Shown here piece after piece: positions 7,427 to 39,320 of a stretch of 64,000 nucleotides of DNA; position 1 is the first letter of the stretch; every line of letters begins with the position of its first letter. The notes below the pieces were generated by a model that searched no databases, had not been told where the DNA came from, and worked only from the letters and a program-made list of their open reading frames with translations. The stretch is taken from sequence record NC_054908.1, one strand, 5' to 3'. A program made the translations under genes and the position numbers. Origin of the DNA: Escherichia phage vB_EcoM_DalCa.

Positions 7427-7455
7427 ATAATACCACAGTTTGAACTTGTTGTAAA
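7427..7455 (-). promoter_or_regulatory. T4 early-type promoter (sigma70-like, -35 TTTACA / -10 TATTAT, 17-bp spacer) with A/T-rich upstream element
   Basis: Plus strand ATAATA...17 nt...TGTAAACAACTTTGTGAAAATTATTTTA; reverse complement gives -35 GTTTACA and -10. Confidence 0.55.
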
Positions 7456-7529
7456 CAACTTTGTGAAAATTATTTTAGGGAATGATAAGAAGGGAACGAT
7501 AGCTTAGAATGGTAATATACAGAATGTGA

Positions 7530-7552
7530 GAAAGAAGGGCCCAGAGGGCCCG
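7530..7552 (-). terminator. Putative intrinsic terminator downstream of nrdH
   Basis: GGGCCC...GGGCCC palindromic hairpin followed on minus by UUCUUUCUC. Confidence 0.45.
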
Positions 7553-7554
7553 TC

Positions 7555-7878
7555 TTAGTCTTCTATGATATCTCTATCATATCCAAGTGAAATGAGAGTT
7601 TCTTTGAAGTGTTTAATGTTCTTTTGTCTAGAATCATTAATGAAAATGACAGGATACCGAATATTAAGAGATGTGAATCCGGCGCGTTTGGCAAGAGATA
7701 CAATCAGTGGACGATCATACTCAATCTTACCATTATTAGTAAGAACTTTATAGAAAGTAAAAGGAGCATTGAGCTCCTTTAGAAGTTTTGTAACTGATTG
7801 ACATCCAGGACAACGACCTACTTCATCTGGAATTCCATAGACTTCAATCTTATTCTTTAAGTTCGAGTTTTGTTCCAC
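7555..7878 (-). CDS. nrdH: Glutaredoxin-like protein (NrdH-like), probable GTG start
   Basis: CPGC redox motif in a thioredoxin-fold-sized product; ORF 7555..8007 trimmed to a GTG preceded by AAGGAA, because the ATG-initiated ORF would overlap the upstream gene by about 160 nt. Confidence 0.6.
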   Translation of the reverse strand: MEQNSNLKNKIEVYGIPDEVGRCPGCQSVTKLLKELNAPFTFYKVLTNNGKIEYDRPLIVSLAKRAGFTSLNIRYPVIFINDSRQKNIKHFKETLISLGYDRDIIED

Positions 7879-8161
7879 GAGAAATAATTCCTTGGTAAGC
7901 CCAATAAGGAGGATTAACAGAATCCTCACCAGAGTTTTCTTCAGGAAAATAAACCTGGATAACGAAGCCGGATTCATCAAAGGTAAAATAAACCGTAGGC
8001 AGTTCACCTAACAATTCTGCACGAGCATTAATTTCTTCGAGATCTCGTTCACGTCCAGCCCAAAAACTAGGATTTAGACTACATTCGTAAAAATAATAGT
8101 CATTACCGAACATATCAAACCCCTTCCAACTCTCTACTACATACCGCTCAAAACTAATCAT
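7850..8161 (-). CDS. Hypothetical protein
   Basis: 103-aa ORF between nrdG and nrdH. Confidence 0.5.
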   Translation of the reverse strand: MISFERYVVESWKGFDMFGNDYYFYECSLNPSFWAGRERDLEEINARAELLGELPTVYFTFDESGFVIQVYFPEENSGEDSVNPPYWAYQGIISRGTKLELKE

Positions 8162-8163
8162 AA

Positions 8164-8379
8164 TTAAGCCTTTTTATCAAGAACAGCATTCAGCTTGTTA
8201 GTAATTTTATCCAGACGCTCATTGAACTCACTAGAAGATAAGCCCTTTTCTGGAGAAATTAAACTAATCACGAAAAATATAGCAATAAAAGGAATAAGGA
8301 AAATAGCTCCAACTGCCATAAACAGAAAGAATGTTACAGTTGTAAGAAAATCAGCTAAACCTTTACGAAATTTATACAT
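8164..8379 (-). CDS. Hypothetical small membrane protein
   Basis: 71 aa with a long hydrophobic segment (TVTFFLFMAVGAIFLIPFIAIFFVISLI). Confidence 0.5.
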   Translation of the reverse strand: MYKFRKGLADFLTTVTFFLFMAVGAIFLIPFIAIFFVISLISPEKGLSSSEFNERLDKITNKLNAVLDKKA

Positions 8380-8494
8380 ATTTTACCCTTAATTGATTAA
8401 CCAAGCATTGATAAGCACTAAACTATATTGGGAATAAAATTCTGGACCAAAATGAAAAATCATATCATTTATAGTATCCATAATGTAATTCAAT

Positions 8495-8965
8495 TTAATC
8501 ATGTTTCCACACCCCATCGGTATTTGACCAAAGTCGCTGATTATCTGATCCTCGCCACAGCTTTTTAGTCGGAAGATTTTTCTCATACTTCCCATCAATA
8601 ATAACATCAACATATTTAAGCATTTCTAGTTGTTTAATATCTTCAAACTTATATCCTGTCCACAACCAAATGCTTTTATTGGGATAAAGATTTTTAATAG
8701 TTTGAACCACAGAGTGAATCACGTCTCTGTTATCAGGATAAAGAGGGTCACCTCCGGTTATAGTTAATCCTTCTATATAATCATTATTCAAACATTCAAT
8801 TAATTGTTCTAGTGTTTCACCAGTGAATGGAATACCATTTCTAGCATTCCATGTTGATTTATTATAACACCCTTCGCATTTATGCAAACAACCTGTAACG
8901 AAAAGAACGGTCCTGCAGCCAGGACCATTAACAAAATCGCAAGGATAAAATCTATCATAATTCAT
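8495..8965 (-). CDS. nrdG: Anaerobic ribonucleotide reductase activating protein (radical SAM)
   Basis: 156 aa; Cys cluster CLHKCEGCYN typical of glycyl-radical-activating enzymes; directly downstream of nrdD. Confidence 0.9.
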   Translation of the reverse strand: MNYDRFYPCDFVNGPGCRTVLFVTGCLHKCEGCYNKSTWNARNGIPFTGETLEQLIECLNNDYIEGLTITGGDPLYPDNRDVIHSVVQTIKNLYPNKSIWLWTGYKFEDIKQLEMLKYVDVIIDGKYEKNLPTKKLWRGSDNQRLWSNTDGVWKHD

Positions 8966-10779
8966 TGGTGTTTAACCCTATGCATGATTTCTTTATTTTT
9001 GCCGAGATTAAATCCGCGTTCGTTCGGATTTCCCAAATAACCACATGTTCTTCTTATTGTGTTCATCTTTTTAGGATCAGTTTCTCCACAAATAGAACAA
9101 ACAAATCCGTTTTCAGTAGGAGTCATTTCATGGGTACTTCCACATGTAAAACATTTATCTACTGGCATATTAACACCAAAATAATCTAAATGTTGTGCAG
9201 CATAATCCCATACGGCCTCAAGACCCTTTAAGTTATTTTTCATATCAGGAAGTTCAACATAAGAAATGTGGCCGCCTGTCGCAATGAAATGATATGGTGC
9301 TTCGCGAGAAATCTTTTCAAACGGAGTAATATTTTCTTCTACTGAAACATGGAAACTGTTAGTGTACCAACCTTTATCGGTAACATCCTTTACACTTCCA
9401 TATTTTTCGGTATCAAGTTTACAGAAGCGATAACAAAGGTTTTCAGCAGGAGTAGAATACAAACTAAAAGCAAACCCAGTTCTTTCAGTCCACTGTTTAA
9501 GACGAGCATTCATTTTAGTTAAAATTTCCTGTCCAATATCACGACCGACAAGAATATTCAATTCGTGAATACCAATGTATCCTAGAGACACTGAACTTCT
9601 GCCATTTTTAAATAACTCAATTATATCGTCATCAGGTTTAAGACGAACCCCGAATGCACCTTCTTGGTAAAGAATAGGAGCAACAGTCGCTTTAACTCCT
9701 TTTAAGGAACTAATTCTACACATCAAAGCTTCAAAACATAAATCCATTCGCTCATTGAACAATTCAGTAAATTTCTGTTCATTGAACTGTGTTCCAATAT
9801 AAGAATCTAATGCGATACGAGGAAGATTCAGTGTTACAACACCGAGATTATTACGTCCATCAAGAATTTCATTGCCAGTCGAATCTTTCCATACGCTCAA
9901 GAAACTACGACAACCCATTGGAGAAACAGGAATAGATGAGCCGGTGATAGCTTTATTGTTCTTAGCCGAAATGATGTCAGGATACATTCTTTTGCTTGCG
10001 CACTCTAAAGCAAGCTGCTTAATATCATAGTTCGGGTCGTCTTTATAAAGATTAACACCTTCTTCAACGAACATAACAAGTTTAGGAAAAATAGGAGTTA
10101 TCCCATCACGACCGAGACCTTTAATACGATTTTTCAGAATTGCTTTCTGAATCATTCGTTCAGTCCAGTCAGTTCCCGTACCAAATGTAATTGTTACAAA
10201 AGGAGTCTGTCCGTTTGAACTAAAGAGAGTATTTACTTCATATTCATAAGCTTGGAATGCATCGTATACGTCTTTTTCTGTTTTAGATTGAGCATAATTC
10301 AACGCATCAGCGATTTGCCATTTTTCTGCATCTTCAATATGTTTTGCATAGGTGCGTTTAACATAAGGAGAAAGTACTTCATCTACATTCGCAAAAGTCG
10401 TTCCGCCATATTGATGGGAAGCAACCTGTGCAGTAATTTGTGCCATAATTGCAGTAGCAACACCGATTGATTTAGGAGTTTCAATCTGCGCATTACCGAG
10501 CTTAAATCCGTTCTCAAGCATTCCTTTTAAATCTACTAAACAGCAATTAGTAAATGGAAGAGCAGGGGAATAATCAATATCATGGAAATGAATAATTCCG
10601 CTTTCATGCGCTTTCATAATAAAAGACGGGACCATATTTTTGGCAATGTGCTTAGACACAATACCAGCCATAAGGTCCCGTTGAGTTGGAAAAACACGAG
10701 AATCTTTATTAGCATTCTCGTTTAAAAGGTCTTTATTAGTTTTATGAATCAATCCTTCAATTTCTTTTTCAATTGTCAT
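8962..10779 (-). CDS. nrdD: Anaerobic ribonucleoside-triphosphate reductase (class III), uninterrupted
   Basis: 605 aa continuous ORF; C-terminal glycyl-radical motif RRTCGYLG and Zn-ribbon CFTCGS...CSICG. Confidence 0.95.
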   Translation of the reverse strand: MTIEKEIEGLIHKTNKDLLNENANKDSRVFPTQRDLMAGIVSKHIAKNMVPSFIMKAHESGIIHFHDIDYSPALPFTNCCLVDLKGMLENGFKLGNAQIETPKSIGVATAIMAQITAQVASHQYGGTTFANVDEVLSPYVKRTYAKHIEDAEKWQIADALNYAQSKTEKDVYDAFQAYEYEVNTLFSSNGQTPFVTITFGTGTDWTERMIQKAILKNRIKGLGRDGITPIFPKLVMFVEEGVNLYKDDPNYDIKQLALECASKRMYPDIISAKNNKAITGSSIPVSPMGCRSFLSVWKDSTGNEILDGRNNLGVVTLNLPRIALDSYIGTQFNEQKFTELFNERMDLCFEALMCRISSLKGVKATVAPILYQEGAFGVRLKPDDDIIELFKNGRSSVSLGYIGIHELNILVGRDIGQEILTKMNARLKQWTERTGFAFSLYSTPAENLCYRFCKLDTEKYGSVKDVTDKGWYTNSFHVSVEENITPFEKISREAPYHFIATGGHISYVELPDMKNNLKGLEAVWDYAAQHLDYFGVNMPVDKCFTCGSTHEMTPTENGFVCSICGETDPKKMNTIRRTCGYLGNPNERGFNLGKNKEIMHRVKHQ

Positions 10780-11817: not shown

Positions 11818-11846
11818 ATTATATACTGTTTCTTCATCAGTGTAAA
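11818..11846 (-). promoter_or_regulatory. T4 early-type promoter upstream of pin-like gene
   Basis: Minus strand -35 TTTACA, 17-bp spacer, -10 TATAAT. Confidence 0.5.
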
Positions 11847-11900
11847 CCGGTTCTTCCGGCTCTGGCTCTACAGTTTCCCATCTAGCCGCCCACCAAGGTT

Positions 11901-15409: not shown

Positions 15410-15438
15410 ATTATACCACATCCTTGTGGCGAAGTAAA
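15410..15438 (-). promoter_or_regulatory. T4 early-type promoter upstream of 14383..15381
   Basis: Minus strand -35 GTTTACT, 17-bp spacer, TGG-TATAAT extended -10. Confidence 0.5.
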
Positions 15439-16458
15439 CTAGTTCAGTGCATTTAGTGCGTTGTTCAGTTTAGAACGTTGCTTCGTGAGATTTTTGACTT
15501 TTTCTTGAGCTTTTTCTAGCATCTTTTCAGCTTCTAGCACTTCATTGGTCGCTTTAACGAGTTCATCATCTACTGCCTTGATAGACTTCTCAATCGCATC
15601 CGCGTGCCATTTTTCAACAGGTTTAAGACTCGGATTTTCAATAGGAAGAAAATTCACTTTATTGAATTTCCATGCATCTTTATTGCCTGAACTATACATC
15701 CAAAATTTAGGATCGTTTGATGAGTAATTAGATAAATTTAAGTTATCTTGCACTTCTTGCTTTTTCTCTTGCGGGACTTCATCCTTTCTCAAAAAATCGT
15801 ATTTAAATGAAACGATCATATCAAGTTCATATGTTGTTGTATGTTCCCAATTTCGCTCAAAACGAGGTAAAATCTTAGAATGAACAGCGGCAACAACATC
15901 CATATACTTAAATGCTTCTGTCAACTGCGATTTAAGGCATTCGCAAATTGAAAGAGAATTTTTTGTATTAGGTTTAAAGCTAATTCGTGCAGTTCTATTA
16001 TTTTCTTTTAATGGTCTTACTTCCATCTGAAGAGTATAACCATCAAATTTCAGGTTCTTTAAGTTAATGTCAGAACCTTTTAATCGACTAGCCGTCGACA
16101 AAATTTGCTTTAATTGTTTACGGAATAGAGCAATAAATCTCCATTCAAGACGATAATGATTTGGATTAAAAAATCCTGTTGATAAATCAACCTTACTCTG
16201 ACCAACGCCTTGAACAAATAGAGGATTTTTATAATCAATAGTTTTACAGAAATCGGTGAGCTGCTCACGAGCAGTCATTTGTGTAATATATCCCGCTTTA
16301 CTAAAATGACGTAACCATTCACTGCTATTCATATACTTAAAGTGAATATCACGATTAACTTTATCAGGGTCTAAATTATTTTCACACAAAAATGTCATAA
16401 CATCACGAGTATAGCTGGCATTACGAACCATATCTTCAATTTGAGAACGAGTTTTCAT
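15439..16458 (-). CDS. Hypothetical protein with C-terminal coiled-coil (paralog family member)
   Basis: 339 aa; C-terminal coiled-coil-like tail. Confidence 0.55.
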   Translation of the reverse strand: MKTRSQIEDMVRNASYTRDVMTFLCENNLDPDKVNRDIHFKYMNSSEWLRHFSKAGYITQMTAREQLTDFCKTIDYKNPLFVQGVGQSKVDLSTGFFNPNHYRLEWRFIALFRKQLKQILSTASRLKGSDINLKNLKFDGYTLQMEVRPLKENNRTARISFKPNTKNSLSICECLKSQLTEAFKYMDVVAAVHSKILPRFERNWEHTTTYELDMIVSFKYDFLRKDEVPQEKKQEVQDNLNLSNYSSNDPKFWMYSSGNKDAWKFNKVNFLPIENPSLKPVEKWHADAIEKSIKAVDDELVKATNEVLEAEKMLEKAQEKVKNLTKQRSKLNNALNALN

Positions 16459-18380: not shown

Positions 18381-18409
18381 ATAGTATCACAGAGGAACAG
18401 TCTTGTAAA
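18381..18409 (-). promoter_or_regulatory. T4 early-type promoter module upstream of 17825..18352
   Basis: Conserved module TGATAGTTGTATAGTATCAC...TGTAAACAAC on plus; minus -35 GTTTACA, 17-bp spacer, -10 TACTAT. Confidence 0.5.
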
Positions 18410-18412
18410 CAA

Positions 18413-19820: not shown

Positions 19821-19849
19821 ATAATATCACACTACTACCCTGCTGTAAA
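19821..19849 (-). promoter_or_regulatory. T4 early-type promoter module upstream of P-loop NTPase gene
   Basis: TTGATAGGGTAATAATATCAC...TGTAAACAATTTATTTTA on plus; 17-bp spacing. Confidence 0.5.
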
Positions 19850-19853
19850 CAAT

Positions 19854-20299: not shown

Positions 20300-20328
20300 A
20301 TAGTACCATAAAGCTTTATGCTTGTAAA
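20300..20328 (-). promoter_or_regulatory. T4 early-type promoter module
   Basis: TTGATAGTTGTATAGTACC...TGTAAACAGTTTTGTGAAAAATTTTT on plus; 17-bp spacing. Confidence 0.5.
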
Positions 20329-20345
20329 CAGTTTTGTGAAAAATT

Positions 20346-23064: not shown

Positions 23065-23093
23065 ACTATATCATAACCTTGCCAACTTGTAAA
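23065..23093 (-). promoter_or_regulatory. Candidate T4 early-type promoter upstream of 22387..22932
   Basis: Minus -35 TTTACA, 17-bp spacer, -10 TATAGT. Confidence 0.4.
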
Positions 23094-23259
23094 CCATTAA
23101 ATGACGTTTTCGATAAAATTCTGAAGCTTTGTATGAGCATCAACCATGATTTTCATTTCTTCTTTAGCGAAAGCTGTACCTCTTTCCCGAGAAGAATACT
23201 CATAATCAGAAACTGCATTAGCATATTCTTCAATTAGCTTCATTAAAAACATCTGCTTT

Positions 23260-23876: not shown

Positions 23877-23905
23877 ATAGTACCACAGCTCAAACGGAAA
23901 GTAAA
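23877..23905 (-). promoter_or_regulatory. T4 early-type promoter module upstream of 23660..23848
   Basis: GGTTGTATAGTACCAC...AGTAAAC on plus; 17-bp spacing. Confidence 0.5.
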
Positions 23906-23910
23906 CCGGT

Positions 23911-28073: not shown

Positions 28074-28102
28074 TGATAGAAAAATTATACCACAGTCAAG
28101 AG
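28074..28102 (-). promoter_or_regulatory. T4 early-type promoter upstream of regB
   Basis: Minus -35 GTTTACT, 17-bp spacer, TGG-TATAAT. Confidence 0.55.
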
Positions 28103-28115
28103 GAAAAGTAAACAG

Positions 28116-30695: not shown

Positions 30696-30724
30696 ATACT
30701 ATCACAATTCTAGGAGAAAGTAAA
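30696..30724 (-). promoter_or_regulatory. T4 early-type promoter upstream of denV
   Basis: Minus -35 GTTTACT, 17-bp spacer, -10 TAGTAT; lies between e and denV. Confidence 0.5.
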
Positions 30725-30729
30725 CAACT

Positions 30730-32186: not shown

Positions 32187-32545
32187 TTAATTTTCCTACA
32201 ATCACTCACAAACTCTTCCATTGATTCTTTTTCAATATAAGACATATAGCTATTATATTCCTTTAATTGTATTTTGTAATCCTTTTTTCTTTGCCAATTT
32301 ATTTTAAAATTATCATAATGAAAATATAACATGGTACCAAAGAATGAAAATAATGAAATCGCTATAGTAAAACGAAGTTCACTCCAAACCTCTGTTATAA
32401 TTACTGTGCCGTCGATATTTAAAATAAAACAGTCAATTAACAATCCAATAAGACTACCCGCAAGAGCTGTAAATACTGATACAGCAAGAATTAATAGTGC
32501 CTCAGGAAACGAATATTTGACTTTATTTAGTTTTGGCTTTTGCAT
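32183..32545 (-). CDS. Hypothetical membrane protein (paralog group)
   Basis: 120 aa; two TM helices; C-terminal ...FVSDCRKIK. Confidence 0.5.
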   Translation of the reverse strand: MQKPKLNKVKYSFPEALLILAVSVFTALAGSLIGLLIDCFILNIDGTVIITEVWSELRFTIAISLFSFFGTMLYFHYDNFKINWQRKKDYKIQLKEYNSYMSYIEKESMEEFVSDCRKIK

Positions 32546-32940
32546 CGTGATTCCTTAACAAATTTCATAATTTCATCAAATTCATACATATCTAGCTTAA
32601 GCTGGTGTTCCTTTTTAATCTTTTTACACTGAGCTTTCCAATCACGTACACGTTTACGATAATGTCTTCCTTGATACCAGTATCCTACCCAATTTACGGG
32701 TACTAATAAAAGTGGAACTATTAATGGAAGAATTAGCATTAACACAAGTATTTCGCCAGAATCAATATCAGTCATAACATCTAAAACACCTCCAATAATC
32801 AATAGAATTACAAATGATATGAGTATAACAGGACCTATTAACACATCAGTAGAAATTATCTGACGCTTTGGTTCATACTTCACAGGTTTACTTGGAAGGT
32901 ATAGTGATGGTTTTGACATATTCTCTACATTCCTTAACAA
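32527..32940 (-). CDS. Hypothetical membrane protein (paralog group)
   Basis: 137 aa; two TM helices; C-terminal ...FVKESRCKSQN. Confidence 0.5.
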   Translation of the reverse strand: MLRNVENMSKPSLYLPSKPVKYEPKRQIISTDVLIGPVILISFVILLIIGGVLDVMTDIDSGEILVLMLILPLIVPLLLVPVNWVGYWYQGRHYRKRVRDWKAQCKKIKKEHQLKLDMYEFDEIMKFVKESRCKSQN

Positions 32941-33502
32941 ATTTTTCTAGTAATAAATCACTTTCAAAATTGGGATTTTCTACAAATTTATCAAAAAGAT
33001 CATCAACAATAGTTAAGATATTCTTTTTACTAAGAATACGTTTATTTTCATGCTTCGTTTCAGAATCAACTATAAGAGTAAAGAAATATTTCTTGCCCTG
33101 AAATTTTACAGTAGTATCAATATAAAATAAATTTGACTTTTGTAAATTACGTTTAAACCATGCGTCACTTAAACTATAAACACCGAGATAATCAAAATCG
33201 TCGTTTAAATAACAAACCGTCCATTCAGGAGAAATGAAATCAGTAAATTCAACATCAAAATCACACGTCAATGAATGAATTGATTCAATACTGTTAATGA
33301 GTATTCCAGGACGTATTAAAGACTTTTTACCTCTAGAAAATCTTCCGGAAAGGCTTTCATCAGTTTCATATGAAGACCCCCAATAGTAATTACGTCCTTC
33401 TGCCATGCGTTTAAGAGCATTTAGTAATTGGTCTGGAACATCAACCTGTCTTTGGAACTCTTCAAACATTGAATTGAAATCACTTTGCATTTTCATTTTC
33501 AT
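32888..33502 (-). CDS. Hypothetical protein
   Basis: 204-aa ORF. Confidence 0.5.
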   Translation of the reverse strand: MKMKMQSDFNSMFEEFQRQVDVPDQLLNALKRMAEGRNYYWGSSYETDESLSGRFSRGKKSLIRPGILINSIESIHSLTCDFDVEFTDFISPEWTVCYLNDDFDYLGVYSLSDAWFKRNLQKSNLFYIDTTVKFQGKKYFFTLIVDSETKHENKRILSKKNILTIVDDLFDKFVENPNFESDLLLEKFVKECREYVKTITIPSK

Positions 33503-33520
33503 TCCTATTTACTCCAAGTA

Positions 33521-33540
33521 TAAGGGGCCGAAGCCCCTTA
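33521..33540 (-). terminator. Putative terminator hairpin downstream of 33544..34137
   Basis: TAAGGGGC-CGAA-GCCCCTTA palindrome; weak U-tract. Confidence 0.4.
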
Positions 33541-33543
33541 TCA

Positions 33544-34137
33544 TTATTTCAGAGAATTAATGTATTCCTGAACATCGGCAGAGGTAGTTTCAACCCCAGA
33601 AATATTACCGTTAAAGGTTTCAACTCGAGCAAGGGTATCTTCAATATCAACCTTAGTCAGTGCTGCAATTTCAACTACATCATCAGCAGTACTAATTCCA
33701 AGGGCATTTGCTGCACGAGTTTCACGGATATATTCCAATTTAACCGCAAGTTCTTGACGAGCATCATCTAACTCAACTACTTTCTTGGCGATTTCAATTC
33801 GCATTTCAGCATAACCGTCAGCCTTAGTAGTCAACTGCTCAGCTGTTCGACGATATAGTAAACCGAGTTTAGCATGCATTGTTACATCTTGGCCTTCGGA
33901 AAGAAGTTTACGAATTTCACGCTCTTTTGATTCGGCCTGTCGATTCTTTTCGATAACAAGTTCACGAATACGTTTTTCTTCGTTAATAGATTTAACAGAA
34001 GCAGTTTTTAGATCTTTAATTTTATCAAGTAGTTTTGCTGCTGCAGCAGTATACTGTTCTTCGACAGATAGATTTTTAGCCATAGCAGAACCAAGTTTAG
34101 TGCGAATAAACTCAACAATTTTCTTCAGTGTGTTCAT
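33544..34137 (-). CDS. Hypothetical coiled-coil protein (PspA/IM30-like architecture?)
   Basis: 197 aa, almost entirely predicted alpha-helical coiled-coil with E/K/R-rich heptads. Confidence 0.5.
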
Positions 34138-34208
34138 AGTATTTCCTTAGGTTAATTGAGATTTAAAATCCGTAGGAGTATAATACTCTATCGTCAAATT
34201 ATAGGCTC

Positions 34209-34237
34209 ATAATATCTCAATCATGAGCCTGCGTAAA
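34209..34237 (-). promoter_or_regulatory. Candidate T4 early-type promoter upstream of 33544..34137
   Basis: Minus -35 GTTTACG, 17-bp spacer, -10 TATTAT. Confidence 0.4.
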
Positions 34238-34238
34238 C

Positions 34239-34502
34239 TTATTTCATATTATTGAAATATTCTTCTGCGATTTCGTCGTTATCATGGTAAACTTTAGAAG
34301 ACAGTTTAACATAACCTTCTGCTGTGAACATATTAATCACAACTTTTACAGTATACCACTGACCGTCTTCATTACCCATTACTGCGTAAGTTTCAAACAT
34401 CGGATGATCAGGACCGATAACTTTAATATCATTCACTGTACGACCGAAATCTTCTGAAACGCATTTCATAAAGAAGTTGAACAGTTCGCCGTAATTATCC
34501 AT
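34239..34502 (-). CDS. Hypothetical protein
   Basis: ORF 34239..34622 trimmed to ATG (MDNYGELF) preceded by GGAG; upstream 40 codons lie in a conserved promoter module. Confidence 0.45.
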   Translation of the reverse strand: MDNYGELFNFFMKCVSEDFGRTVNDIKVIGPDHPMFETYAVMGNEDGQWYTVKVVINMFTAEGYVKLSSKVYHDNDEIAEEYFNNMK

Positions 34503-34535
34503 TTCATTCTCCAAGTTGTTTTCTGTATCAGTAGT

Positions 34536-34564
34536 TGATAGTTGTATAGTACCATGGAAGAACA
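34536..34564 (-). promoter_or_regulatory. T4 early-type promoter module upstream of 34239..34502
   Basis: TTGATAGTTGTATAGTACC...TGTAAACAGTTTTGTGAAAAAATTTTTAGGG on plus. Confidence 0.5.
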
Positions 34565-34731
34565 GAGATGTAAACAGTTTTGTGAAAAAATTTTTAGGGA
34601 ATTCTAGGGCAGGGATGGGCAATTAAAGGATAGGATAATATATTATAAAGGGTATAAACTAAATGATGCCTAGAGAGGTCCAGAAAGGCCTAGATACCAA
34701 AAAGCCCTATCATTTAGATAGGGATTTAAAA

Positions 34732-35295
34732 TTATTTACCTAGTTTACTTATTATAGCTTCTGCAGCAGCTTTTAGCTTAGATGCAGTGTTAATACGATT
34801 TTTAATTTCAGTATACGCATCGCCAAGAACATCAAGGCTATCAGAATAAACACTTACACTATTGCGTTCGCTATTTGAAATAGAACCTTTAGTTTTGCGG
34901 TCAAAATCGGTGTACACGTCTTGAAGATCGCGGGCTGCCTTCTTTGCATCATCCAATGCATCAAGAGCTTTATTCAAAGCATTAACGTATTTTTTAGTGT
35001 CGAACATATTCTTAGAAATTTTAACAGGTGCGCGTTCAGGAGTAGCTAACACAGATTTAGGAACCTGAGCGCCAGATGCCAATTTCTTAGAAATTTTGAA
35101 AAATGCTTTATTGAATTTATTTTCTTGACTCATTGTAAAAGAACTATTATCGATGTTGTACATTTCAATAGCTTTAGCTTTCCACTTAAGAAAATCGCCG
35201 CGGTCTTTTGGGTCCAATTGGAAGAATACTTTAGTAAGATCTGCTTCAGATGGTAATTTTGCTGCTTCGGTTAAAAATTCGGCATAGGTTTTCAT
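34732..35295 (-). CDS. Internal-protein-like capsid-targeted protein (IP family candidate)
   Basis: 187 aa; N-terminus MKTYAEFLTEA resembles the T4 internal-protein capsid-targeting sequence (MKTYQEFIAE) ending in an L-x-E prohead-protease-type site. Confidence 0.55.
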   Translation of the reverse strand: MKTYAEFLTEAAKLPSEADLTKVFFQLDPKDRGDFLKWKAKAIEMYNIDNSSFTMSQENKFNKAFFKISKKLASGAQVPKSVLATPERAPVKISKNMFDTKKYVNALNKALDALDDAKKAARDLQDVYTDFDRKTKGSISNSERNSVSVYSDSLDVLGDAYTEIKNRINTASKLKAAAEAIISKLGK

Positions 35296-35384
35296 TTAAA
35301 ATCCTTGAAATAATTTATCGGTTGGTTATTAATTATTTATTACTTTGTTACTATCCGTAACAGCGTTATCCGAGTGATTCAAAC

Positions 35385-35413
35385 TAAAAAGCCCCAACCT
35401 TTCGGTCGGGGCT
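35385..35413 (-). terminator. Intrinsic terminator (repeat copy 1) downstream of IP-like gene 35421..35894
   Basis: On minus strand AGCCCCGACC-GAAA-GGUUGGGGCU followed by UUUUU; identical to copy at 35942-35970. Confidence 0.6.
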
Positions 35414-35420
35414 AAGAATG

Positions 35421-35894
35421 TCATTTGATTTGTTTAGCAGACCAAATGCGGTCTTTAATAATTTTTTGGATGTCTTCAACATACTCAAGAGAGTGAACAT
35501 GTGGATTATCTTTGAAACTATAAGCACGGGCTAACTTTTGGCCTTCGGTTTTGATTACTAAAAGCTCTTTAAGGATAGCTTCATATTTAGCGATAATTCC
35601 TTTAACGATATTTTTTTCTTGTGCCGCTTTAGGATCTGCTTTAGGAGCAGGTTTACCCGAAGCCTTTGCAAAAGCAGCGCCAGTAGCAACTAAACTTTTC
35701 CAGGCCATACTAACTGCATTTCCCGTAAATCCTTCCGCTTTCATGTCGCGTGCAAACTGGAATCGCGATTCATCAGAAGCATCTTTATAGGAATATTTAC
35801 CCGCGGCAATGGCAGCTTTTGCAACAGCTTGAATTTCGGTGCTAGATGCTTCATTTAACACCGCTTCATTTAAAAATTGAGTATATGATTTCAT
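35421..35894 (-). CDS. Internal-protein-like capsid-targeted protein (IP family candidate)
   Basis: ORF 35421..36071 trimmed to ATG (MKSYTQFLNEA) preceded by AGGAAA; CTS-like N-terminus; TATAAATA late-promoter motif upstream; terminator hairpin downstream. Confidence 0.55.
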   Translation of the reverse strand: MKSYTQFLNEAVLNEASSTEIQAVAKAAIAAGKYSYKDASDESRFQFARDMKAEGFTGNAVSMAWKSLVATGAAFAKASGKPAPKADPKAAQEKNIVKGIIAKYEAILKELLVIKTEGQKLARAYSFKDNPHVHSLEYVEDIQKIIKDRIWSAKQIK

Positions 35895-35932
35895 CTTATT
35901 TCCTGTTTTAATTTGTAGATTTAATATACTAA

Positions 35933-35940
35933 TATTTATA
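35933..35940 (-). promoter_or_regulatory. T4-type late promoter motif upstream of internal-protein-like gene 35421..35894
   Basis: Plus strand TATTTATA (TATAAATA on minus) about 40 nt upstream of the MKSYTQF start. Confidence 0.5.
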
Positions 35941-35941
35941 C

Positions 35942-35970
35942 CAAAAAGCCCCAACCTTTCGGTCGGGGCT
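35942..35970 (-). terminator. Intrinsic terminator (repeat copy 2) at 3' end of tRNA/small-RNA transcription unit
   Basis: Same 29-nt hairpin plus U5 as copy 1. Confidence 0.6.
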
Positions 35971-36277
35971 AAGCCTTGCGGCAACCTTGTCGGGGTTCCA
36001 CCTGCTAAGGCAAGTGTTTGTACGAAACGCCGGGATTCGAACCCGGTTATTAAGTAGTTGACGCTACTCAATATTTTTAAAAGGCCATATCTCGACCATA
36101 TCCGAACGTTCCGTCAAAAACGCTACTCGGCTTACGGCAAAGATATTTCCTCGAATCGATAATTCGGTGCGCCGTTTCTGCTGTGATAGTAAAGAGCCAG
36201 AACACAGTAAAACTGTGGGAGGAAACTATACTCCAGGGAACATCAGTCCGACGACTTACCGGTAGCGACCCGGTTTC
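35971..36277 (-). ncRNA. Candidate small stable RNA(s), analogous to T4 RNA C/RNA D (species 1 and 2), including a tRNA-like T-arm
   Basis: About 300 nt with no ORF of 60 aa or more between the tRNA-region ORF and a strong terminator; perfect T-arm-like hairpin CCGGG-TTCGAAT-CCCGG near 36030-36046 without a full cloverleaf; exact RNA ends not determinable by eye. Confidence 0.3.
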
Positions 36278-36628
36278 TTAATATTCTTTTAAAGAATCAA
36301 TATATTCACGGCGTTTACGCCACAAATCAATTGCTTCATACGCGGATTCAGCATTTCGAATTAGCCTGCATTTATGTAAAGACTTATGATTTTGATATTG
36401 TGTAGATAACGGAATTGTATCTAAAAGGTCTTTACGATCAAAATATTCGTAACCATCTAAACCAAATGAACGATTTTTGAGAAATTGCCAATGACCATAT
36501 TCGTTTTCGACATAAACATAATCTGCATGCTGATAAAGCAAATTAATTACACGTTCAGAAATAACAGTATCATTATGATTAAAATAGAATGTTAAATCAT
36601 GAACTACTAAATAAACATTACCTTTCAT
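36278..36628 (-). CDS. Hypothetical protein within tRNA region
   Basis: 116-aa ORF immediately downstream of tRNA-Arg. Confidence 0.5.
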   Translation of the reverse strand: MKGNVYLVVHDLTFYFNHNDTVISERVINLLYQHADYVYVENEYGHWQFLKNRSFGLDGYEYFDRKDLLDTIPLSTQYQNHKSLHKCRLIRNAESAYEAIDLWRKRREYIDSLKEY

Positions 36629-36646
36629 ATTTTCCTCACTTATAAT

Positions 36647-36722
36647 TGGTCGAGGCAGTAGGGATCGAACCTACGACCTAGGACTTAGAAGGTCCTTGCT
36701 CTTCCTTCTGAGCTATGCCCCG
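36647..36722 (-). tRNA. tRNA-Arg (anticodon UCU), CCA encoded
   Basis: Manual fold of reverse complement: 7-bp acceptor stem, anticodon arm AGGAC-CUUCUAA-GUCCU, T-arm GTAGG-TTCGATC-CCTAC; 76 nt. Confidence 0.8.
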
Positions 36723-36726
36723 TAAT

Positions 36727-36802
36727 TGGGGTGACCGATGGGAGTCGAACCCATGACTACGAGAATCACAATCTCGAGTTCTACCAACTGAACTACGGCC
36801 AC
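36727..36802 (-). tRNA. tRNA-His (anticodon GUG), CCA encoded
   Basis: Manual fold: D-stem GTTC/GAAC, anticodon arm CGAGA-UUGUGAU-UCUCG, T-arm ATGGG-TTCGACT-CCCAT, discriminator C; not part of the 8-tRNA T4 set. Confidence 0.75.
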
Positions 36803-36916
36803 ATTAATACCTACTCCAACAATCAAGATGTCTTCACACGAAATTAAGAGAAGAGTGATCAGTTCAACCCCTATAATCGCGTCAAGTAGATATTAATGTG
36901 ACAGTTGTCACAAATT

Positions 36917-36991
36917 TGGCGGACGTGATAGGATTCGAACCTATAACCAATCGCTTAACAGGCGATCGCTCTGCCATTGAGCTACACATCC
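36917..36991 (-). tRNA. tRNA-Asn (anticodon GUU), CCA encoded
   Basis: Manual fold: anticodon arm ATCGC-CUGUUAA-GCGAT, T-arm with GGTTCGAATCC; not part of the T4 set. Confidence 0.75.
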
Positions 36992-36995
36992 AAAT

Positions 36996-37082
36996 TGGTG
37001 GGGAGTGGTGGAGTCGAACCACCCGAGTCGCAATGACAATGGATTTACAGTCCACACCGCTACCTCTACGGGATAACTCCCC
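36996..37082 (-). tRNA. tRNA-Tyr (anticodon GUA), class II long variable arm, CCA encoded
   Basis: Manual fold: acceptor GGGGAGT/ACTCCCC, anticodon loop CUGUAAA, long variable arm, T-arm GGTGG-TTCGACT-CCACC; 87 nt; not part of the T4 set. Confidence 0.7.
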
Positions 37083-37091
37083 AAATTAATT

Positions 37092-37166
37092 TGGTGGCCC
37101 TGGGTGGAATTGAACCACCATCTGGCGATTATGAGTCGCTTGCTTGAACCTTCCAGCTACAGGGCC
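37092..37166 (-). tRNA. tRNA with anticodon CAU (Met or lysidine-modified Ile), CCA encoded
   Basis: Manual fold: acceptor GGCCCTG/CAGGGCC, anticodon loop CUCAUAA, T-arm GGTGG-TTCAATT-CCACC; cannot separate Met from Ile(LAU) by eye. Confidence 0.65.
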
Positions 37167-37167
37167 T

Positions 37168-37243
37168 TGGTGCTGATTGACGGAATCGAACCGCCGACCT
37201 TCTCATTACAAGTGAGTTGCTCTACCTACTGAGCTAAATCAGC
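37168..37243 (-). tRNA. tRNA-Thr (anticodon UGU), CCA encoded
   Basis: Manual fold: acceptor GCTGATT/AATCAGC, anticodon loop CUUGUAA, T-loop TTCGATT. Confidence 0.75.
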
Positions 37244-37248
37244 AAAAC

Positions 37249-37338
37249 TGGCGGAGGCGATAGGATTTGAACCTATGAGTCGCCGGAGCGACTGCCGGTT
37301 TTCAAGACCGGTGCATTAAACCACTCTGCCACGCCTCC
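37249..37338 (-). tRNA. tRNA-Ser (anticodon UGA), class II, CCA encoded
   Basis: Manual fold: acceptor GGAGGCG/CGCCTCC, anticodon arm CCGGT-CUUGAAA-ACCGG, long variable arm; 90 nt. Confidence 0.8.
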
Positions 37339-37340
37339 AG

Positions 37341-37414
37341 TCTCCGTGGCAGGATTTGAACCTACGACATTCTACTCCCAAAGCAGACGCTCTACCAAAC
37401 TGAGCTACACGGAG
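37341..37414 (-). tRNA. tRNA-Pro (anticodon UGG), CCA not encoded
   Basis: Manual fold: acceptor CTCCGTG/CACGGAG, anticodon loop UUUGGGA, T-loop TTCAAAT; 3' end abuts tRNA-Ser 5' end, consistent with the T4-type Pro-Ser dimeric precursor. Confidence 0.75.
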
Positions 37415-37424
37415 TAAATTAAAT

Positions 37425-37498
<74 letters not shown>

Positions 37499-37503
37499 AA
37501 ATT

Positions 37504-37590
37504 TGGTGCGAGAAGTGGGACTCGAACCCACAAGGAAATCATTCCGCAGCATTTTAAGTGCTGTGCCTTTACCAATTTGGCCATTCTCGC
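37504..37590 (-). tRNA. tRNA-Leu (anticodon UAA), class II, CCA encoded
   Basis: Manual fold: acceptor GCGAGAA/TTCTCGC, anticodon arm CAGCA-CUUAAAA-UGCUG, long variable arm; 87 nt. Confidence 0.8.
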
Positions 37591-37591
37591 G

Positions 37592-37664
37592 CTGGGAATA
37601 AAGGACTCGAACCTTTGCATCCTGGAATCAAAATCCAGTGCCTTACCAACTTGGCTAATTCCCA
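37592..37664 (-). tRNA. tRNA-Gln (anticodon UUG), CCA not encoded
   Basis: Manual fold: acceptor TGGGAAT/ATTCCCA (U1-A72), anticodon arm CTGGA-UUUUGAU-TCCAG, T-arm AAAGG-TTCGAGT-CCTTT; 3' end abuts tRNA-Leu as in the T4 Gln-Leu dimeric precursor. Confidence 0.75.
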
Positions 37665-37761
37665 ATTATTAACAAAGGCTCTTAAGCAAGAACCCTTGAT
37701 GATAGAGGGTATTAATCAGTGCGATATGAGTTAATAATAACAAATAATTCTTAAAGCATAT

Positions 37762-38049
37762 TTACCATTTATAATAATACATATTTACGATGCATTCAAG
37801 ACCCAAAGGATTCTTGAAAATATCATATTCAAGAGGACCTTTTTCTGTTTCAATAAAGAAATCAAAATTTACTGTATTAAATTTACGTTCTTCCTTCACT
37901 AATTTAACTTGAGAAGATGAACGGTCAATGTAAACCTTTTCAACTTCAAAACATGTTAAAATGCCATAATCATCAATCAAAGCTTTAGCCGCGTCTTGAT
38001 CATATTTATATCCATTTTCAATGGATGATACTTTCGCATAAAGAATCAT
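37762..38049 (-). CDS. Hypothetical protein
   Basis: 95-aa ORF upstream of the tRNA cluster. Confidence 0.5.
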   Translation of the reverse strand: MILYAKVSSIENGYKYDQDAAKALIDDYGILTCFEVEKVYIDRSSSQVKLVKEERKFNTVNFDFFIETEKGPLEYDIFKNPLGLECIVNMYYYKW

Positions 38050-38450: not shown

Positions 38451-38635
38451 TATTCACCTTTAGAAATTTTATCCATAACAATAGCAATTAAACCAATTAA
38501 AAATGCTACTACAAGTGAAAAAACATTTTCTGCCGTAGTCAATAATCCGCATATAAATCCAACAAACATTGAAAAACTGAAAGCGGAAGCAGAAATTGCA
38601 ATAGCAACATTTCGAATTAATTCACAACGTTTCAT
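38450..38635 (-). CDS. Hypothetical small membrane protein
   Basis: 61 aa, two hydrophobic helices; early-type promoter upstream. Confidence 0.45.
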   Translation of the reverse strand: MKRCELIRNVAIAISASAFSFSMFVGFICGLLTTAENVFSLVVAFLIGLIAIVMDKISKGE

Positions 38636-38663
38636 TTTATTCTCCTCAGTAGTAGATAGGGTA

Positions 38664-38692
38664 ATAGTATCACTACCCTATCTAAAAGTAAA
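38664..38692 (-). promoter_or_regulatory. T4 early-type promoter module upstream of 38450..38635
   Basis: GATAGGGTAATAGTATCAC...AGTAAAC on plus; 17-bp spacing. Confidence 0.5.
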
Positions 38693-38693
38693 C

Positions 38694-38939
38694 TTATTTT
38701 TTACGAAAAATTGATTTATTTTCTGCTGCCCATTTTTCAATAACTGCAGCAGGACCAGTAACAACAATTTTATCACCGTAATCTTCTGCGGCGAGTTGAC
38801 CGAAATTATCTAATGCATCACGAAGAACTCCATGAGGCATTTCACCCATTTTATCTTTCTTGCCAGTGTAAATAAACTCAACTTTTACATCAGCAGTTTC
38901 AGCAATAAATTCTTGGTAAGTTTTCATTTTGATTTCCAT
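38694..38939 (-). CDS. Internal-protein-like capsid-targeted protein (IP family candidate)
   Basis: 81-aa ORF; from its fifth codon reads MKTYQEFIAETA, matching the T4 IP capsid-targeting sequence; true start may be that internal ATG. Confidence 0.55.
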   Translation of the reverse strand: MEIKMKTYQEFIAETADVKVEFIYTGKKDKMGEMPHGVLRDALDNFGQLAAEDYGDKIVVTGPAAVIEKWAAENKSIFRKK

Positions 38940-38961
38940 TTGGTTTTGTTTTGATAGGGTA

Positions 38962-38990
38962 ATAGTATCACAACTAAAACCCTATGTAAA
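38962..38990 (-). promoter_or_regulatory. T4 early-type promoter module upstream of IP-like gene 38694..38939
   Basis: TTGATAGGGTAATAGTATCAC...TGTAAACAACTTTGTGAAATTATTTTA on plus. Confidence 0.55.
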
Positions 38991-39003
38991 CAACTTTGTG
39001 AAA

Positions 39004-39261
39004 TTATTTTAAATCTTCTAATCGTTTCTTCATCTTAGAACCATTTTTAGCAATTTCTCCTGCATCGGAGCATAATGCTAAAAGTGCTTTAACTTTAGTT
39101 TGGTCTCCTTTAAAAGATGAAGGATCGACCGCAGCAGCAAGTTCTTTAATACGAGAGAAAAGACGCTCAGCTTCAGCTAAAGCCATTCCAAGCTTTACTT
39201 CCATACCGTGGGAAGATTCAGTGATAGTAGTTTTTGTAGCAAACTCTTTGAAAGTTTTCAT
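39004..39261 (-). CDS. Internal-protein-like capsid-targeted protein (IP family candidate)
   Basis: 85 aa; N-terminus MKTFKEFATKTTITE resembles CTS with L/I-x-E site. Confidence 0.5.
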   Translation of the reverse strand: MKTFKEFATKTTITESSHGMEVKLGMALAEAERLFSRIKELAAAVDPSSFKGDQTKVKALLALCSDAGEIAKNGSKMKKRLEDLK

Positions 39262-39291
39262 TTTTATTTTCCTAATTAATTTTGATGAGGT

Positions 39292-39320
39292 AATAGTATC
39301 ACTACCTCATCAGTATGTAA
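39292..39320 (-). promoter_or_regulatory. T4 early-type promoter module upstream of IP-like gene 39004..39261
   Basis: Near-identical copy of the module at 38962-38990. Confidence 0.55.

What the first reader, a model, noticed from the sequence alone, without database searches (positions are those of the whole stretch)
7427..39320. Family of about 13 conserved early-promoter modules, some extending about 50 bp
Minus-strand promoters share -35 GTTTAC(A/T), a 17-bp spacer and -10 TATAAT/TACTAT, and many also share flanking sequence (for example TTGATAG(G/T)TGTATAGTA(T/C)CAC and TGTAAACA(A/G)(C/T)TTTGTGAAA(A)ATTATTTTA). These dispersed near-identical modules match T4 early promoter architecture with an UP-like element, and may also act as recombination hot spots for shuffling accessory genes. 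The ORF finder produced spurious N-terminal extensions (for example ...TIQLSTT...) where it translated through them.
Basis: partly seen in the sequence, partly recalled or inferred. Interest (0 to 1): 0.4.

Follow-up and report, generated by a model that had tools for sequence, protein, structure and literature searches.

The report
T4-type early promoter cassettes (PeSLs)
The repeated motifs are the well-known strong early promoters of a T4-like phage, packaged with small hairpins as the already-described "PeSL" cassettes, so the finding is real but ordinary.

Summary
The pattern GTTTACW-N16-18-TAYWAT hits 13 times, all on the minus strand, against 0.23 expected. A relaxed model gives 14 credible members between 7427 and 39322. 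All 14 have a 17-nt spacer; 13 have an extended -10 (TGn), an A at the predicted start, and an SD+ATG 25-43 nt downstream. The upstream region is AT-rich. Two further strict hits (6982, 11818) lie inside genes and are doubtful. A similar site at 40800 is the mapped MotA-dependent middle promoter P1.

The window is a Tequatrovirus (about 98% identical to phage U115), and 12 of the 14 sites have positional orthologues in T4. The architecture matches published T4 early promoters (UP/-35/TGn/-10).

The recombination idea is also already published, as PeSL cassettes and for the internal-protein loci. Here, 10 of 38 indel events against four relatives end inside a module, but at only four loci. Two junctions map to the shared CTATC(A/T)A just after the -10.

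I also measured significant complementarity between each spacer and its own downstream sequence, which puts the -10 inside a hairpin. This too is a described PeSL feature.

Verdict: real, correctly interpreted, already known.

The parts
39293..39322 (-). Early promoter P39322 (-35 TTTACA 39321-39316, 17-nt spacer, TGA, -10 TACTAT 39298-39293, predicted start about 39286). It drives an internal-protein-like ORF (ATG 39261, MKTFKEF...). The UP-type flank extends to about 39346.
   Evidence: T4 orthologue at 73939, upstream of ipI. Hairpin across the -10, -18.0 kcal/mol.
38962..38991 (-). Early promoter P38991. It drives an internal-protein ORF at 38694-38939 (MEIKMKTYQEFIAE...). It has no T4 orthologue at this position because it sits in an extra cassette.
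   Evidence: Shares 33 nt exactly with P39322 upstream and 19-20 nt with P38693 and P19850 downstream.
38664..38693 (-). Early promoter P38693, driving the trna.4 orthologue (ATG 38635).
   Evidence: The T4 module at 73572 equals the P38991 core joined to the P38693 downstream part. Hairpin -18.5 kcal/mol.
34546..34575 (-). Early promoter P34575 with a strong UP-type flank (AAAAATTTTTTCACAAAACT), driving the e.8 orthologue (ATG 34502). A terminator-like hairpin lies upstream at 34705-34723.
   Evidence: T4 orthologue at 70696.
34209..34238 (-). Early-type promoter P34238 (-35 TTTACG, no TGn, -10 TATTAT). The next ATG is 71 nt downstream (e.6 orthologue, 34137). It sits next to the e.7 deletion/replacement breakpoint.
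   Evidence: T4 orthologue at 70359. Hairpin -19.8 kcal/mol.
30696..30725 (-). Early-type promoter P30725 (-10 TAGTAT). Here it drives denV (ATG 30670), whereas its T4 orthologue (66498) precedes ipIII. ipII and ipIII are absent from the window, and the breakpoint is at 30674-30681.
   Evidence: The hairpin includes the SD (-18.3 kcal/mol; shuffle fraction 0.017).
28084..28113 (-). Early promoter P28113, driving regB (ATG 28056). The spacer TTTTCCTCTTGACTG is complementary to the SD region CAGTTAAGAGGAGAA.
   Evidence: -21.6 kcal/mol. T4 orthologue at 62797.
23877..23906 (-). Early promoter P23906, driving the mobD.5 orthologue (ATG 23848). An intrinsic terminator at 23922-23939 lies immediately upstream.
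   Evidence: T4 orthologue at 58780.
23065..23094 (-). Early-type promoter P23094 (-10 TATAGT), driving the mobD.2-like ORF (ATG 23036). A 15-bp hairpin straddles the -10.
   Evidence: -21.6 kcal/mol. T4 orthologue at 57990.
20300..20329 (-). Early promoter P20329 with the UP-type flank. An intrinsic terminator at 20358-20377 lies immediately upstream. It drives a 48-aa ORF (ATG 20263) and a DUF4031 ORF (19854-20117), a cassette that is absent from T4, RB68, slur07 and G8.
19821..19850 (-). Early promoter P19850 at the 3' end of the inserted cassette, driving the nrdC.10 orthologue (ATG 19784). It has no T4 orthologue at this position.
18381..18410 (-). Early promoter P18410, driving the nrdC.8 orthologue (ATG 18352). 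The spacer CTGTTCCTC is complementary to the SD region GAGGAACAG.
   Evidence: -18.8 kcal/mol. T4 orthologue at 53943.
15410..15439 (-). Early promoter P15439, driving the nrdC.4 orthologue (ATG 15381). Its upstream region is coding sequence, so it is less AT-rich. It has a small hairpin inside the spacer (CCACA...TGTGG).
   Evidence: T4 orthologue at 50973.
7427..7456 (-). Early promoter P7456 with the UP-type flank, driving the 55.6 orthologue (ATG 7396).
   Evidence: T4 orthologue at 41706.
11818..11847 (-). Strict-pattern hit inside the 49.1-like coding sequence, with no TGn and no SD/ATG. Its status is doubtful: a weak internal promoter or chance.
   Evidence: conserved in four relatives, but it is coding sequence.
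6982..7011 (-). Its status is doubtful.
40771..40800 (-). Not a family member. This is the MotA-dependent middle promoter P1 (MotA box AATGCTTCA, -10 TATAAT) upstream of gene 1.
   Evidence: Hinton 2010 Table 1 gives the P1 start at T4 75393, 19 nt upstream of the gene 1 ATG, and the geometry is the same here.

Best explanation
These are sigma-70-dependent early promoters of a T4-like phage. Host RNA polymerase holoenzyme recognises four elements at once, with no phage protein needed. The AT-rich UP-like tract contacts the alpha C-terminal domains. GTTTAC(A/T) contacts sigma region 4. The TGn extended -10 contacts sigma region 3. TA(C/T)(A/T)AT contacts sigma region 2. Transcription is predicted to start at the A seven nucleotides after the -10 and to run into an SD and ATG 25-43 nt further on. 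Each promoter restarts transcription inside the long leftward early units, in front of small accessory genes. Most modules also carry a stem-loop. In 10 of 14 it straddles the -10: the 5' arm lies in the spacer and the 3' arm just after the -10, or on the SD. In three others a terminator-like hairpin lies upstream. Promoter plus stem-loop plus SD/ATG is the published PeSL cassette. Because the modules share 18-33 nt exact stretches, the phage's efficient homologous recombination can exchange, insert or delete the genes between them. Shown here: the motif statistics, the anatomy, orthology to T4, the complementarity, and two junctions inside modules. Inferred from the T4 literature: polymerase recognition, early timing, and the attenuator role of the hairpin.
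For: Motif statistics: 13 hits against 0.23 expected, all on one strand; 17 against 0.8, all on one strand. Anatomy: 14 of 14 have a 17-nt spacer, 13 of 14 have TGn, 13 of 14 have A at the predicted +1, 13 of 14 have SD+ATG 25-43 nt after the -10, and -60..-37 is 77% AT against 65% +/- 10% background. The window is a Tequatrovirus, and T4 has the same promoters at 12 orthologous positions. The same model finds 33 sites in three T4 segments, all on the early strand. Literature: T4 early promoters are UP/-35/TGn/-10 with extra consensus regions (PMC2988021); T4 dRNA-seq gives the early -10 motif TGTG(A/G)TA(C/T)(A/T)AT; the PeSL consensus for PST/T4 is TTTACW-N17-TAYWAT (PMC4122927); PeSL stem-loops most often lie between the boxes or overlap the -10 (PMC2839356). 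Hairpin: cognate spacer/downstream duplexes average -13.6 against -8.3 kcal/mol for non-cognate pairs in the window, with none of 5000 permutations reaching it. This is replicated in independent T4 regions (-11.05 against -7.26, again 0 of 5000), and an upstream-segment control is flat. Recombination: 10 of 38 events against four relatives end within 20 nt of a module, where 5.3% of bases qualify. Two junctions map to the shared sequence just after the -10.
Against: No transcript data exist for this phage. Early timing and start sites are inferred from sequence and from T4. I could not obtain the published list of mapped T4 early promoters (Miller 2003 is not held) or the dRNA-seq TSS table, so orthology to experimentally mapped starts is indirect. 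Three members deviate from consensus (34238 lacks TGn; 30725 and 23094 have weaker -10 boxes). The breakpoint enrichment rests on only four loci, and T4 also recombines at 6-10 bp microhomologies anywhere (PMC9391042), so 'hot spot' may mean no more than 'available homology at a tolerated site'. The straddling hairpins lack a U-tract, and their attenuator function has not been tested for T4-type modules.
Confidence: 0.92

Rival explanations
1. The matches are chance sigma-70-like sequences in AT-rich DNA with no function.
For: A generic sigma-70 consensus scan of 18001-38000 finds 90 sites against 78 +/- 9 in shuffles, so loose promoter-like matches are indeed noise in this genome. The two in-ORF strict hits (6982, 11818) may belong to this class.
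Against: The specific family is 50-fold or more over expectation. It shows complete strand bias (17 to 0), a fixed 17-nt spacer, intergenic placement with SD+ATG at a fixed distance, and positional conservation in T4, RB68, slur07 and G8.
Confidence: 0.01
2. They are MotA/AsiA-dependent middle promoters rather than early promoters.
For: One similar site at 40800 is the mapped middle promoter P1. About half of middle promoters also carry TGn.
Against: A MotA box (TGCTT centred near -30) replaces the -35 element in middle promoters. The 14 sites instead have GTTTAC at -36 to -31. None of the predicted T4 orthologous starts (41670, 50937, 53907, 55348, 57954, 58744, 62761, 66462, 70323, 70660, 73536, 73903) coincides with a start in Hinton's Table 1 of mapped middle promoters.
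Confidence: 0.03
3. The modules are primarily recombination or mobility signals: cassette ends recognised by a dedicated enzyme or structure-specific nuclease, with the hairpin as its target. Promoter activity would be secondary.
For: Cassette gains and losses have junctions inside modules. The hairpin is maintained by covariation between paralogous modules. Arbiol 2010 raised a possible specific DNA-binding protein and showed mini-circles in RB49/phi1.
Against: The conserved positions are exactly the RNA polymerase contact points, while the stems differ in sequence and register between modules. That argues against a sequence-specific recombinase site. Only four of the variable loci involve modules. 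T4 recombination needs only short homology. No candidate recombinase is evident.
Confidence: 0.05
4. An additional role on top of promoter function. In read-through RNA from upstream promoters, the hairpin that straddles the -10 masks the ribosome-binding site. The gene would then be translated only from its own promoter's transcript, as in the lysozyme (e) and I-TevI cases that use late promoters.
For: The predicted probability that the SD is paired is 0.31 in proximal transcripts and 0.67 in read-through RNA (p = 2e-4). In 7 of 28 promoters the native spacer masks the SD better than at least 95% of shuffled spacers, where about 1.4 would be expected. These include P18410, P28113 (regB) and P30725. 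The known precedent is in PMC3014915.
Against: Across all promoters, shuffled spacers mask the SD equally well (0.65 against 0.67, p = 0.48). In most hairpins the 3' arm ends before the SD. The sense-versus-antisense strand test could not separate RNA-level from DNA-level selection.
Confidence: 0.25

Closest known systems
Bacteriophage T4 early promoters (Liebig and Ruger 1989; Miller et al. 2003; reviewed by Hinton 2010, PMC2988021)
   Same: Same consensus: GTTTAC(A/T), 17-nt spacer, TGn, TA(C/T)(A/T)AT, an AT-rich UP region and extra conserved bases around +1. Same strand and gene context. Twelve of 14 are positional orthologues of T4 sites.
   Different: Nothing essential. Two promoters (19850, 38991) belong to cassettes that T4 lacks, and P30725 drives denV here because ipII and ipIII are missing.
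PeSL (promoter-early stem-loop) cassettes of T4-like phages (Arbiol et al. 2010, PMC2839356; Comeau et al. 2014, PMC4122927)
   Same: AT-rich tract, early promoter, stem-loop at a variable position (often overlapping the -10), then SD and ATG. They lie in hyperplastic regions next to indels. The PST/T4 consensus is TTTACW-N17-TAYWAT. Crossovers fall between the -10 and the SD, as in the RB49 mini-circle junctions.
   Different: The RB49/phi1 stems are G/C-rich and one was shown to terminate transcription. The stems here are AT-richer, lack a U-tract and are untested. Mini-circles have not been looked for in this lineage.
Conserved promoter and leader motifs flanking internal-protein genes in T-even phages (Repoila et al. 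1994, as cited in PMC2839356 and PMC4122927)
   Same: The three modules at 38.66-39.32 kb precede ORFs with the MKTYQEFIAE-type leader. This locus and the ipII/ipIII locus are the most rearranged among relatives.
   Different: I could not read the original paper, so the comparison rests on how later papers describe it.
RBS-sequestering hairpins with an internal promoter (T4 genes e and I-TevI; PMC3014915)
   Same: The 5' arm lies upstream of the proximal start, so only read-through RNA can form the hairpin. In P18410, P28113 and P30725 the 3' arm covers the SD.
   Different: The known cases use late promoters to delay translation. Here the promoter is early, and the effect is specific for only about a quarter of the promoters.

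Membership tests
T4-type early (sigma-70) promoters | -35 element GTTTAC(A/T), aligning with TTGACA | tested here: met
   Of the 14, 13 have GTTTAC(A/T) exactly and P34238 has GTTTACG.
T4-type early (sigma-70) promoters | 17 +/- 1 nt spacer and a -10 of TA(C/T)(A/T)AT preceded by TGn | tested here: met
   Spacer is 17 nt in 14 of 14 and TGn is present in 13 of 14. The -10 fits TAYWAT in 12 of 14; the other two are TAGTAT and TATAGT.
T4-type early (sigma-70) promoters | AT-rich UP-like element at about -40 to -60 | tested here: met
   Mean 77% AT over -60..-37, against 65% +/- 10% for random 24-mers. Five copies carry A-tract/T-tract plus TTTCACAAARYT. P15439 and P23906 are at 58%.
T4-type early (sigma-70) promoters | Placement on the early strand, upstream of early genes, orthologous to T4 sites | tested here: met
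   All are on the minus (early) strand. Twelve of 14 are orthologous to T4 sites at 41706, 50973, 53943, 55384, 57990, 58780, 62797, 66498, 70359, 70696, 73572 and 73939.
T4-type early (sigma-70) promoters | Used by unmodified host RNA polymerase immediately after infection, without phage protein synthesis | not testable with these tools
   This needs 5' end mapping or in vitro transcription. The T4 TSS table of the dRNA-seq preprint was not held.
PeSL cassettes | Early promoter combined with a stem-loop and followed by SD and ATG, in an intergenic position | tested here: met
   Ten of 14 have a hairpin across the -10 of -12.9 kcal/mol or stronger. The complementarity is specific to cognate pairs. 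P20329, P23906 and P34575 have terminator-like hairpins upstream. P7456 has no clear stem-loop.
PeSL cassettes | Association with insertions, deletions and replacements between close relatives | tested here: inconclusive
   Ten of 38 events touch a module, against about 4 expected from random placement (my arithmetic). They cluster at four loci, and many other events are at homing-endonuclease genes. Two junctions are precisely inside modules.
PeSL cassettes | Stem-loop acts as a terminator or attenuator; mini-circles form between neighbouring modules | not testable with these tools
   Shown only for RB49/phi1 by reporter assays and inverse PCR.
T4 middle (MotA-dependent) promoters | MotA box (a/t)(a/t)TGCTT(t/c)a centred near -30 in place of a -35 element | tested here: not met
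   It is absent from the 14 sites and present only at 40800, which is P1.

The most novel reading that the evidence does not exclude
In about a quarter of T4-type early promoters, the -35/-10 spacer has been selected to pair with the gene's own Shine-Dalgarno region. Read-through transcripts from upstream promoters would then be translationally silent for that gene, and possibly protected from RegB cleavage at GGAG, and only the promoter-proximal transcript would be translated. That would make each accessory-gene cassette autonomous at the level of translation as well as transcription. Examples are P28113 (regB), P18410 and P30725 here, and the T4 sites at 8218 and 166807.
Probability: 0.2. 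Interest if true: 0.35.

Novelty: already known. Interest (0 to 1): 0.1.

Why it matters
It matters mainly for annotation. Recognising these modules fixes gene starts: several ORF calls are wrongly extended through promoters, for example 17825-18412, 34239-34622 and 14383-15411. It also defines the early transcription units of this phage and marks the places where accessory-gene cassettes (internal proteins, a DUF4031 gene) have been swapped. No open question is advanced, because promoter class, extended consensus, hairpin and recombination role are all described for T4 and its relatives. The only loose end of some interest is whether the hairpins across the -10 act on read-through RNA, by attenuation or SD masking, in T4-type phages. 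That has not been tested experimentally.

Tried and rejected
1. The generic sigma-70 and terminator scan found 90 promoter-like sites against 78 expected, so it is uninformative in this AT-rich genome. Only the family-specific model discriminates.

2. I tried to read Miller et al. 2003 for the mapped T4 early promoter list, but it is not held. The T4 RefSeq record has no promoter features apart from one note naming 'Pe133295'. The dRNA-seq TSS table is not held. Direct comparison with mapped starts was therefore impossible.

3. I tested RNA-level against DNA-level selection of the hairpin by comparing sense and antisense duplex energies. Sense is better in 41 against 19 cases, but non-cognate controls show the same bias (70% against 78%). 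The bias is compositional and the test is inconclusive.

4. I tested SD masking as a general function. It is rejected as general, because shuffled spacers mask equally well, and retained only for a subset.

5. Column-wise covariation counting was not applicable, because stems sit in different registers in different modules. I used cognate versus non-cognate permutation tests instead.

6. In the viral-contig set selected for the TTTCACAAA-type UP element, the straddling hairpin is only marginal (-7.9 against -7.0, p = 0.02). The hairpin is therefore not universal; UP-rich modules tend to have an upstream terminator instead.

7. I considered 40800 as a family member and rejected it: it is middle promoter P1.

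8. Technical: loci fetched in parallel (L003, L004, L007) never reached the script sandbox, so T4 78-128 kb was not analysed.
Full report
**What is there.** The strict pattern GTTTACW-N16-18-TAYWAT matches 13 times in the 64-kb window, always on the minus strand. Dinucleotide-preserving shuffles give 0.23 matches and never more than 2. A position-weight model built from the 11 intergenic matches finds 17 sites at a relaxed threshold, again all on the minus strand, against 0.8 expected on both strands together.

After inspection, 14 sites between 7427 and 39322 are credible family members. By the coordinate of the G of GTTTAC they are 7456, 15439, 18410, 19850, 20329, 23094, 23906, 28113, 30725, 34238, 34575, 38693, 38991 and 39322.

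Their anatomy is very uniform:
- All 14 have a 17-nt spacer.
- 13 have TGn immediately before the -10.
- 13 have an A seven nucleotides after the -10, the predicted start.
- 13 have a Shine-Dalgarno sequence and ATG 25-43 nt after the -10.
- The 24 nt upstream of the -35 are 77% AT, against 65% +/- 10% for random 24-mers.

Two strict hits (6982-7011 and 11818-11847) lie inside coding sequence and lack TGn and a downstream start. They are conserved in relatives, but so is the surrounding coding sequence, so their status stays open.

- The quoted downstream flank (GTGRTACTATACAMCTATCAA on the minus strand) occurs three times and the upstream flank five times, against 0.00 and 0.01 expected.
- Pairs of modules share exact runs of 18-33 nt, whereas random 130-mers from the window share at most 11.
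- The peptide TIQLSTT arises twice, at 18385 and 34550, from translating TACTATACAACTATCAACTAC. ORFs 17825-18412 and 34239-34622 are therefore spuriously extended through promoters.

**What genome this is.** The window is a Tequatrovirus, about 98% identical to Escherichia phage U115 over 22 kb, with more than 1200 related records. Against T4 it is collinear at about 94-98% identity. The minus-strand part up to about 42.7 kb is the early region from gene 46 to gene 4, and the plus-strand part holds baseplate and neck genes 53 to 17. The same model finds 33 sites in three T4 segments, all on the early strand. Twelve of the window's 14 sites have a T4 counterpart at the orthologous position.

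**Comparison with what is known.**
- Hinton's review describes T4 early promoters as having excellent matches to the -35, TGn, -10 and UP elements, plus additional regions of consensus (PMC2988021).
- A T4 dRNA-seq preprint recovers the early -10 motif TGTG(A/G)TA(C/T)(A/T)AT.
It corresponds exactly to the mapped middle promoter P1: the T4 start is at 75393, 19 nt upstream of the gene 1 ATG.
- None of the predicted starts of the other T4 orthologues coincides with a listed middle-promoter start.

The family is therefore the T4 early class, not the middle class.

**The hairpin.** Reading the sites, I saw that the spacer is often the reverse complement of the sequence just after the -10. Examples are GATGAGGTA/TACCTCATC at 39322, AGATAGGGTA/TACCCTATCT at 38693, and CTGTTCCTC/GAGGAACAG at 18410.
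- A cognate versus non-cognate test confirms it. Mean duplex energy is -13.6 against -8.3 kcal/mol, and none of 5000 permutations reaches the observed value.
- It replicates in T4 regions not homologous to the window (-11.05 against -7.26). A control using the 19 nt upstream of the -35 shows nothing (-4.22 against -4.26).
- Ten of the 14 modules fold into a hairpin across the -10 of -12.9 to -21.6 kcal/mol.
- P20329, P23906 and P34575 instead have terminator-like hairpins 30-130 nt upstream.
- Modules selected for the strong TTTCACAAA-type UP element show only a marginal straddling hairpin in an independent set of viral contigs (-7.9 against -7.0, p = 0.02).

This is also not new. [quoted passage not shown] They add that T-even internal-protein loci carry analogous elements built on T4 early promoters with weaker, AT-richer stems (PMC2839356).

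**What the hairpin does.** I could not determine this.
- The 5' arm lies upstream of the predicted start, so only read-through RNA (or single-stranded DNA) can form the hairpin.
- Sense-strand pairing is stronger than antisense (41 against 19), but non-cognate pairs show the same bias. That is base composition, not evidence for RNA-level selection.
- The SD is predicted to be paired more often in read-through RNA than in the proximal transcript (0.67 against 0.31, p = 2e-4). Shuffled spacers do as well (0.65), so SD masking is not a general designed property.
- It is specific for 7 of 28 promoters, where about 1.4 would be expected, including P18410, P28113 (regB) and P30725.
- This resembles the lysozyme and I-TevI cases, in which a late promoter sits in the 5' arm of an SD-masking hairpin (PMC3014915).

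**Recombination.** Against T4, RB68, slur07 and G8 I count 38 distinct insertion, deletion or replacement events in window 1-43000.
- Ten have an end within 20 nt of a module, whereas 5.3% of bases are that close. By my arithmetic that gives about 4 events expected.
- These ten cluster at four loci: 19796/20257, about 30.7 kb (ipII and ipIII absent), 34.15-34.20 kb (e.7), and 38.67-39.24 kb (the ipI locus).
- Most other events are at homing-endonuclease genes (mobB, mobC, I-TevII, mobD, segB) or elsewhere.
- Two junctions are resolved. T4's single module upstream of trna.4 equals the upstream half of P38991 joined to the downstream half of P38693. T4's module upstream of nrdC.10 equals P20329 joined to P19850. 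In both, the switch lies in the shared CTATC(A/T)A just after the -10.
- That is the same zone (between the -10 and the SD) where RB49 mini-circle junctions were mapped.
- The extra cassettes carry a 48-aa ORF plus a DUF4031 gene, and an internal protein with the MKTYQEFIAE leader.

The evidence fits module-mediated cassette exchange. However, T4 also recombines at 6-10 bp microhomologies anywhere in its genome (PMC9391042). The modules may therefore be no more than convenient homology at sites where exchange is tolerated.

**Verdict.** Everything essential is already described for T4 and its relatives: promoter class, extended consensus, UP element, hairpin and recombination role. The value here is practical: correct gene starts, transcription units and cassette boundaries for this genome. 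The only residual question of modest interest is the function of the hairpins across the -10 in T4-type phages.

Noticed in passing
window 40771-40800 (minus): A promoter-like site with a perfect MotA box (AATGCTTCA) 11 nt upstream of TATAAT. It corresponds to the mapped T4 middle promoter P1 upstream of gene 1 (dNMP kinase).
   Followed up: yes
window 35390-35413 and 35947-35970 (minus): Two identical strong terminator hairpins (AGCCCCGACCGAAAGGTTGGGGCT followed by a T-run) lie 557 nt apart, inside a 1.2-kb segment (34723-35938) that T4 lacks. The segment holds ORFs 34732-35295 (187 aa) and 35421-36071 (216 aa), neither with a significant Pfam match.
   Followed up: partly
window 36647-37664 (minus): Eleven tRNA genes (Arg, His, Asn, Tyr, Met, Thr, Ser, Pro, Gly, Leu, Gln), against eight in T4. 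No segB-like endonuclease gene interrupts the cluster here.
   Followed up: partly
window 30674-30681; 4143-4168; 8945-8965; 10241-10244; 21393-22362: Relative to T4 the window lacks ipII and ipIII, mobB, mobC, the I-TevII intron in nrdD, and mobD. mobD is replaced by two ORFs, one of which is a y05I-like putative transcription factor (PF24449/PF24448).
   Followed up: partly
window 38604-38676: In the 801-bp query 38600-39400, this 73-nt stretch (the 5' UTR and first codons of the trna.4 orthologue, just downstream of P38693) was the part matched at about 93% identity by the listed Klebsiella T4-like phage records.
   Followed up: no
window 6982-7011 and 11818-11847 (minus): Two in-gene matches to the strict early-promoter pattern. 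Their -35 and -10 boxes are conserved in T4, RB68, slur07 and G8. They could be weak internal promoters or simply conserved coding sequence.
   Followed up: partly
window 14383-15411 (minus): This ORF call starts at an ATG inside the -10 region of P15439. By T4 orthology the real nrdC.4 start is the ATG at 15381, so this is another promoter-derived N-terminal extension.
   Followed up: partly
window 23065-23094 compared with T4 57961-57990: T4 has a perfect 14-bp inverted repeat across the -10 (AGTTGACAAGATTA / TAATCTTGTCAACT). The window has two A-to-G changes in the 5' arm, which would still pair as G-U in sense-strand RNA but not in DNA. This is suggestive of RNA-level structure but anecdotal.
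   Followed up: partly
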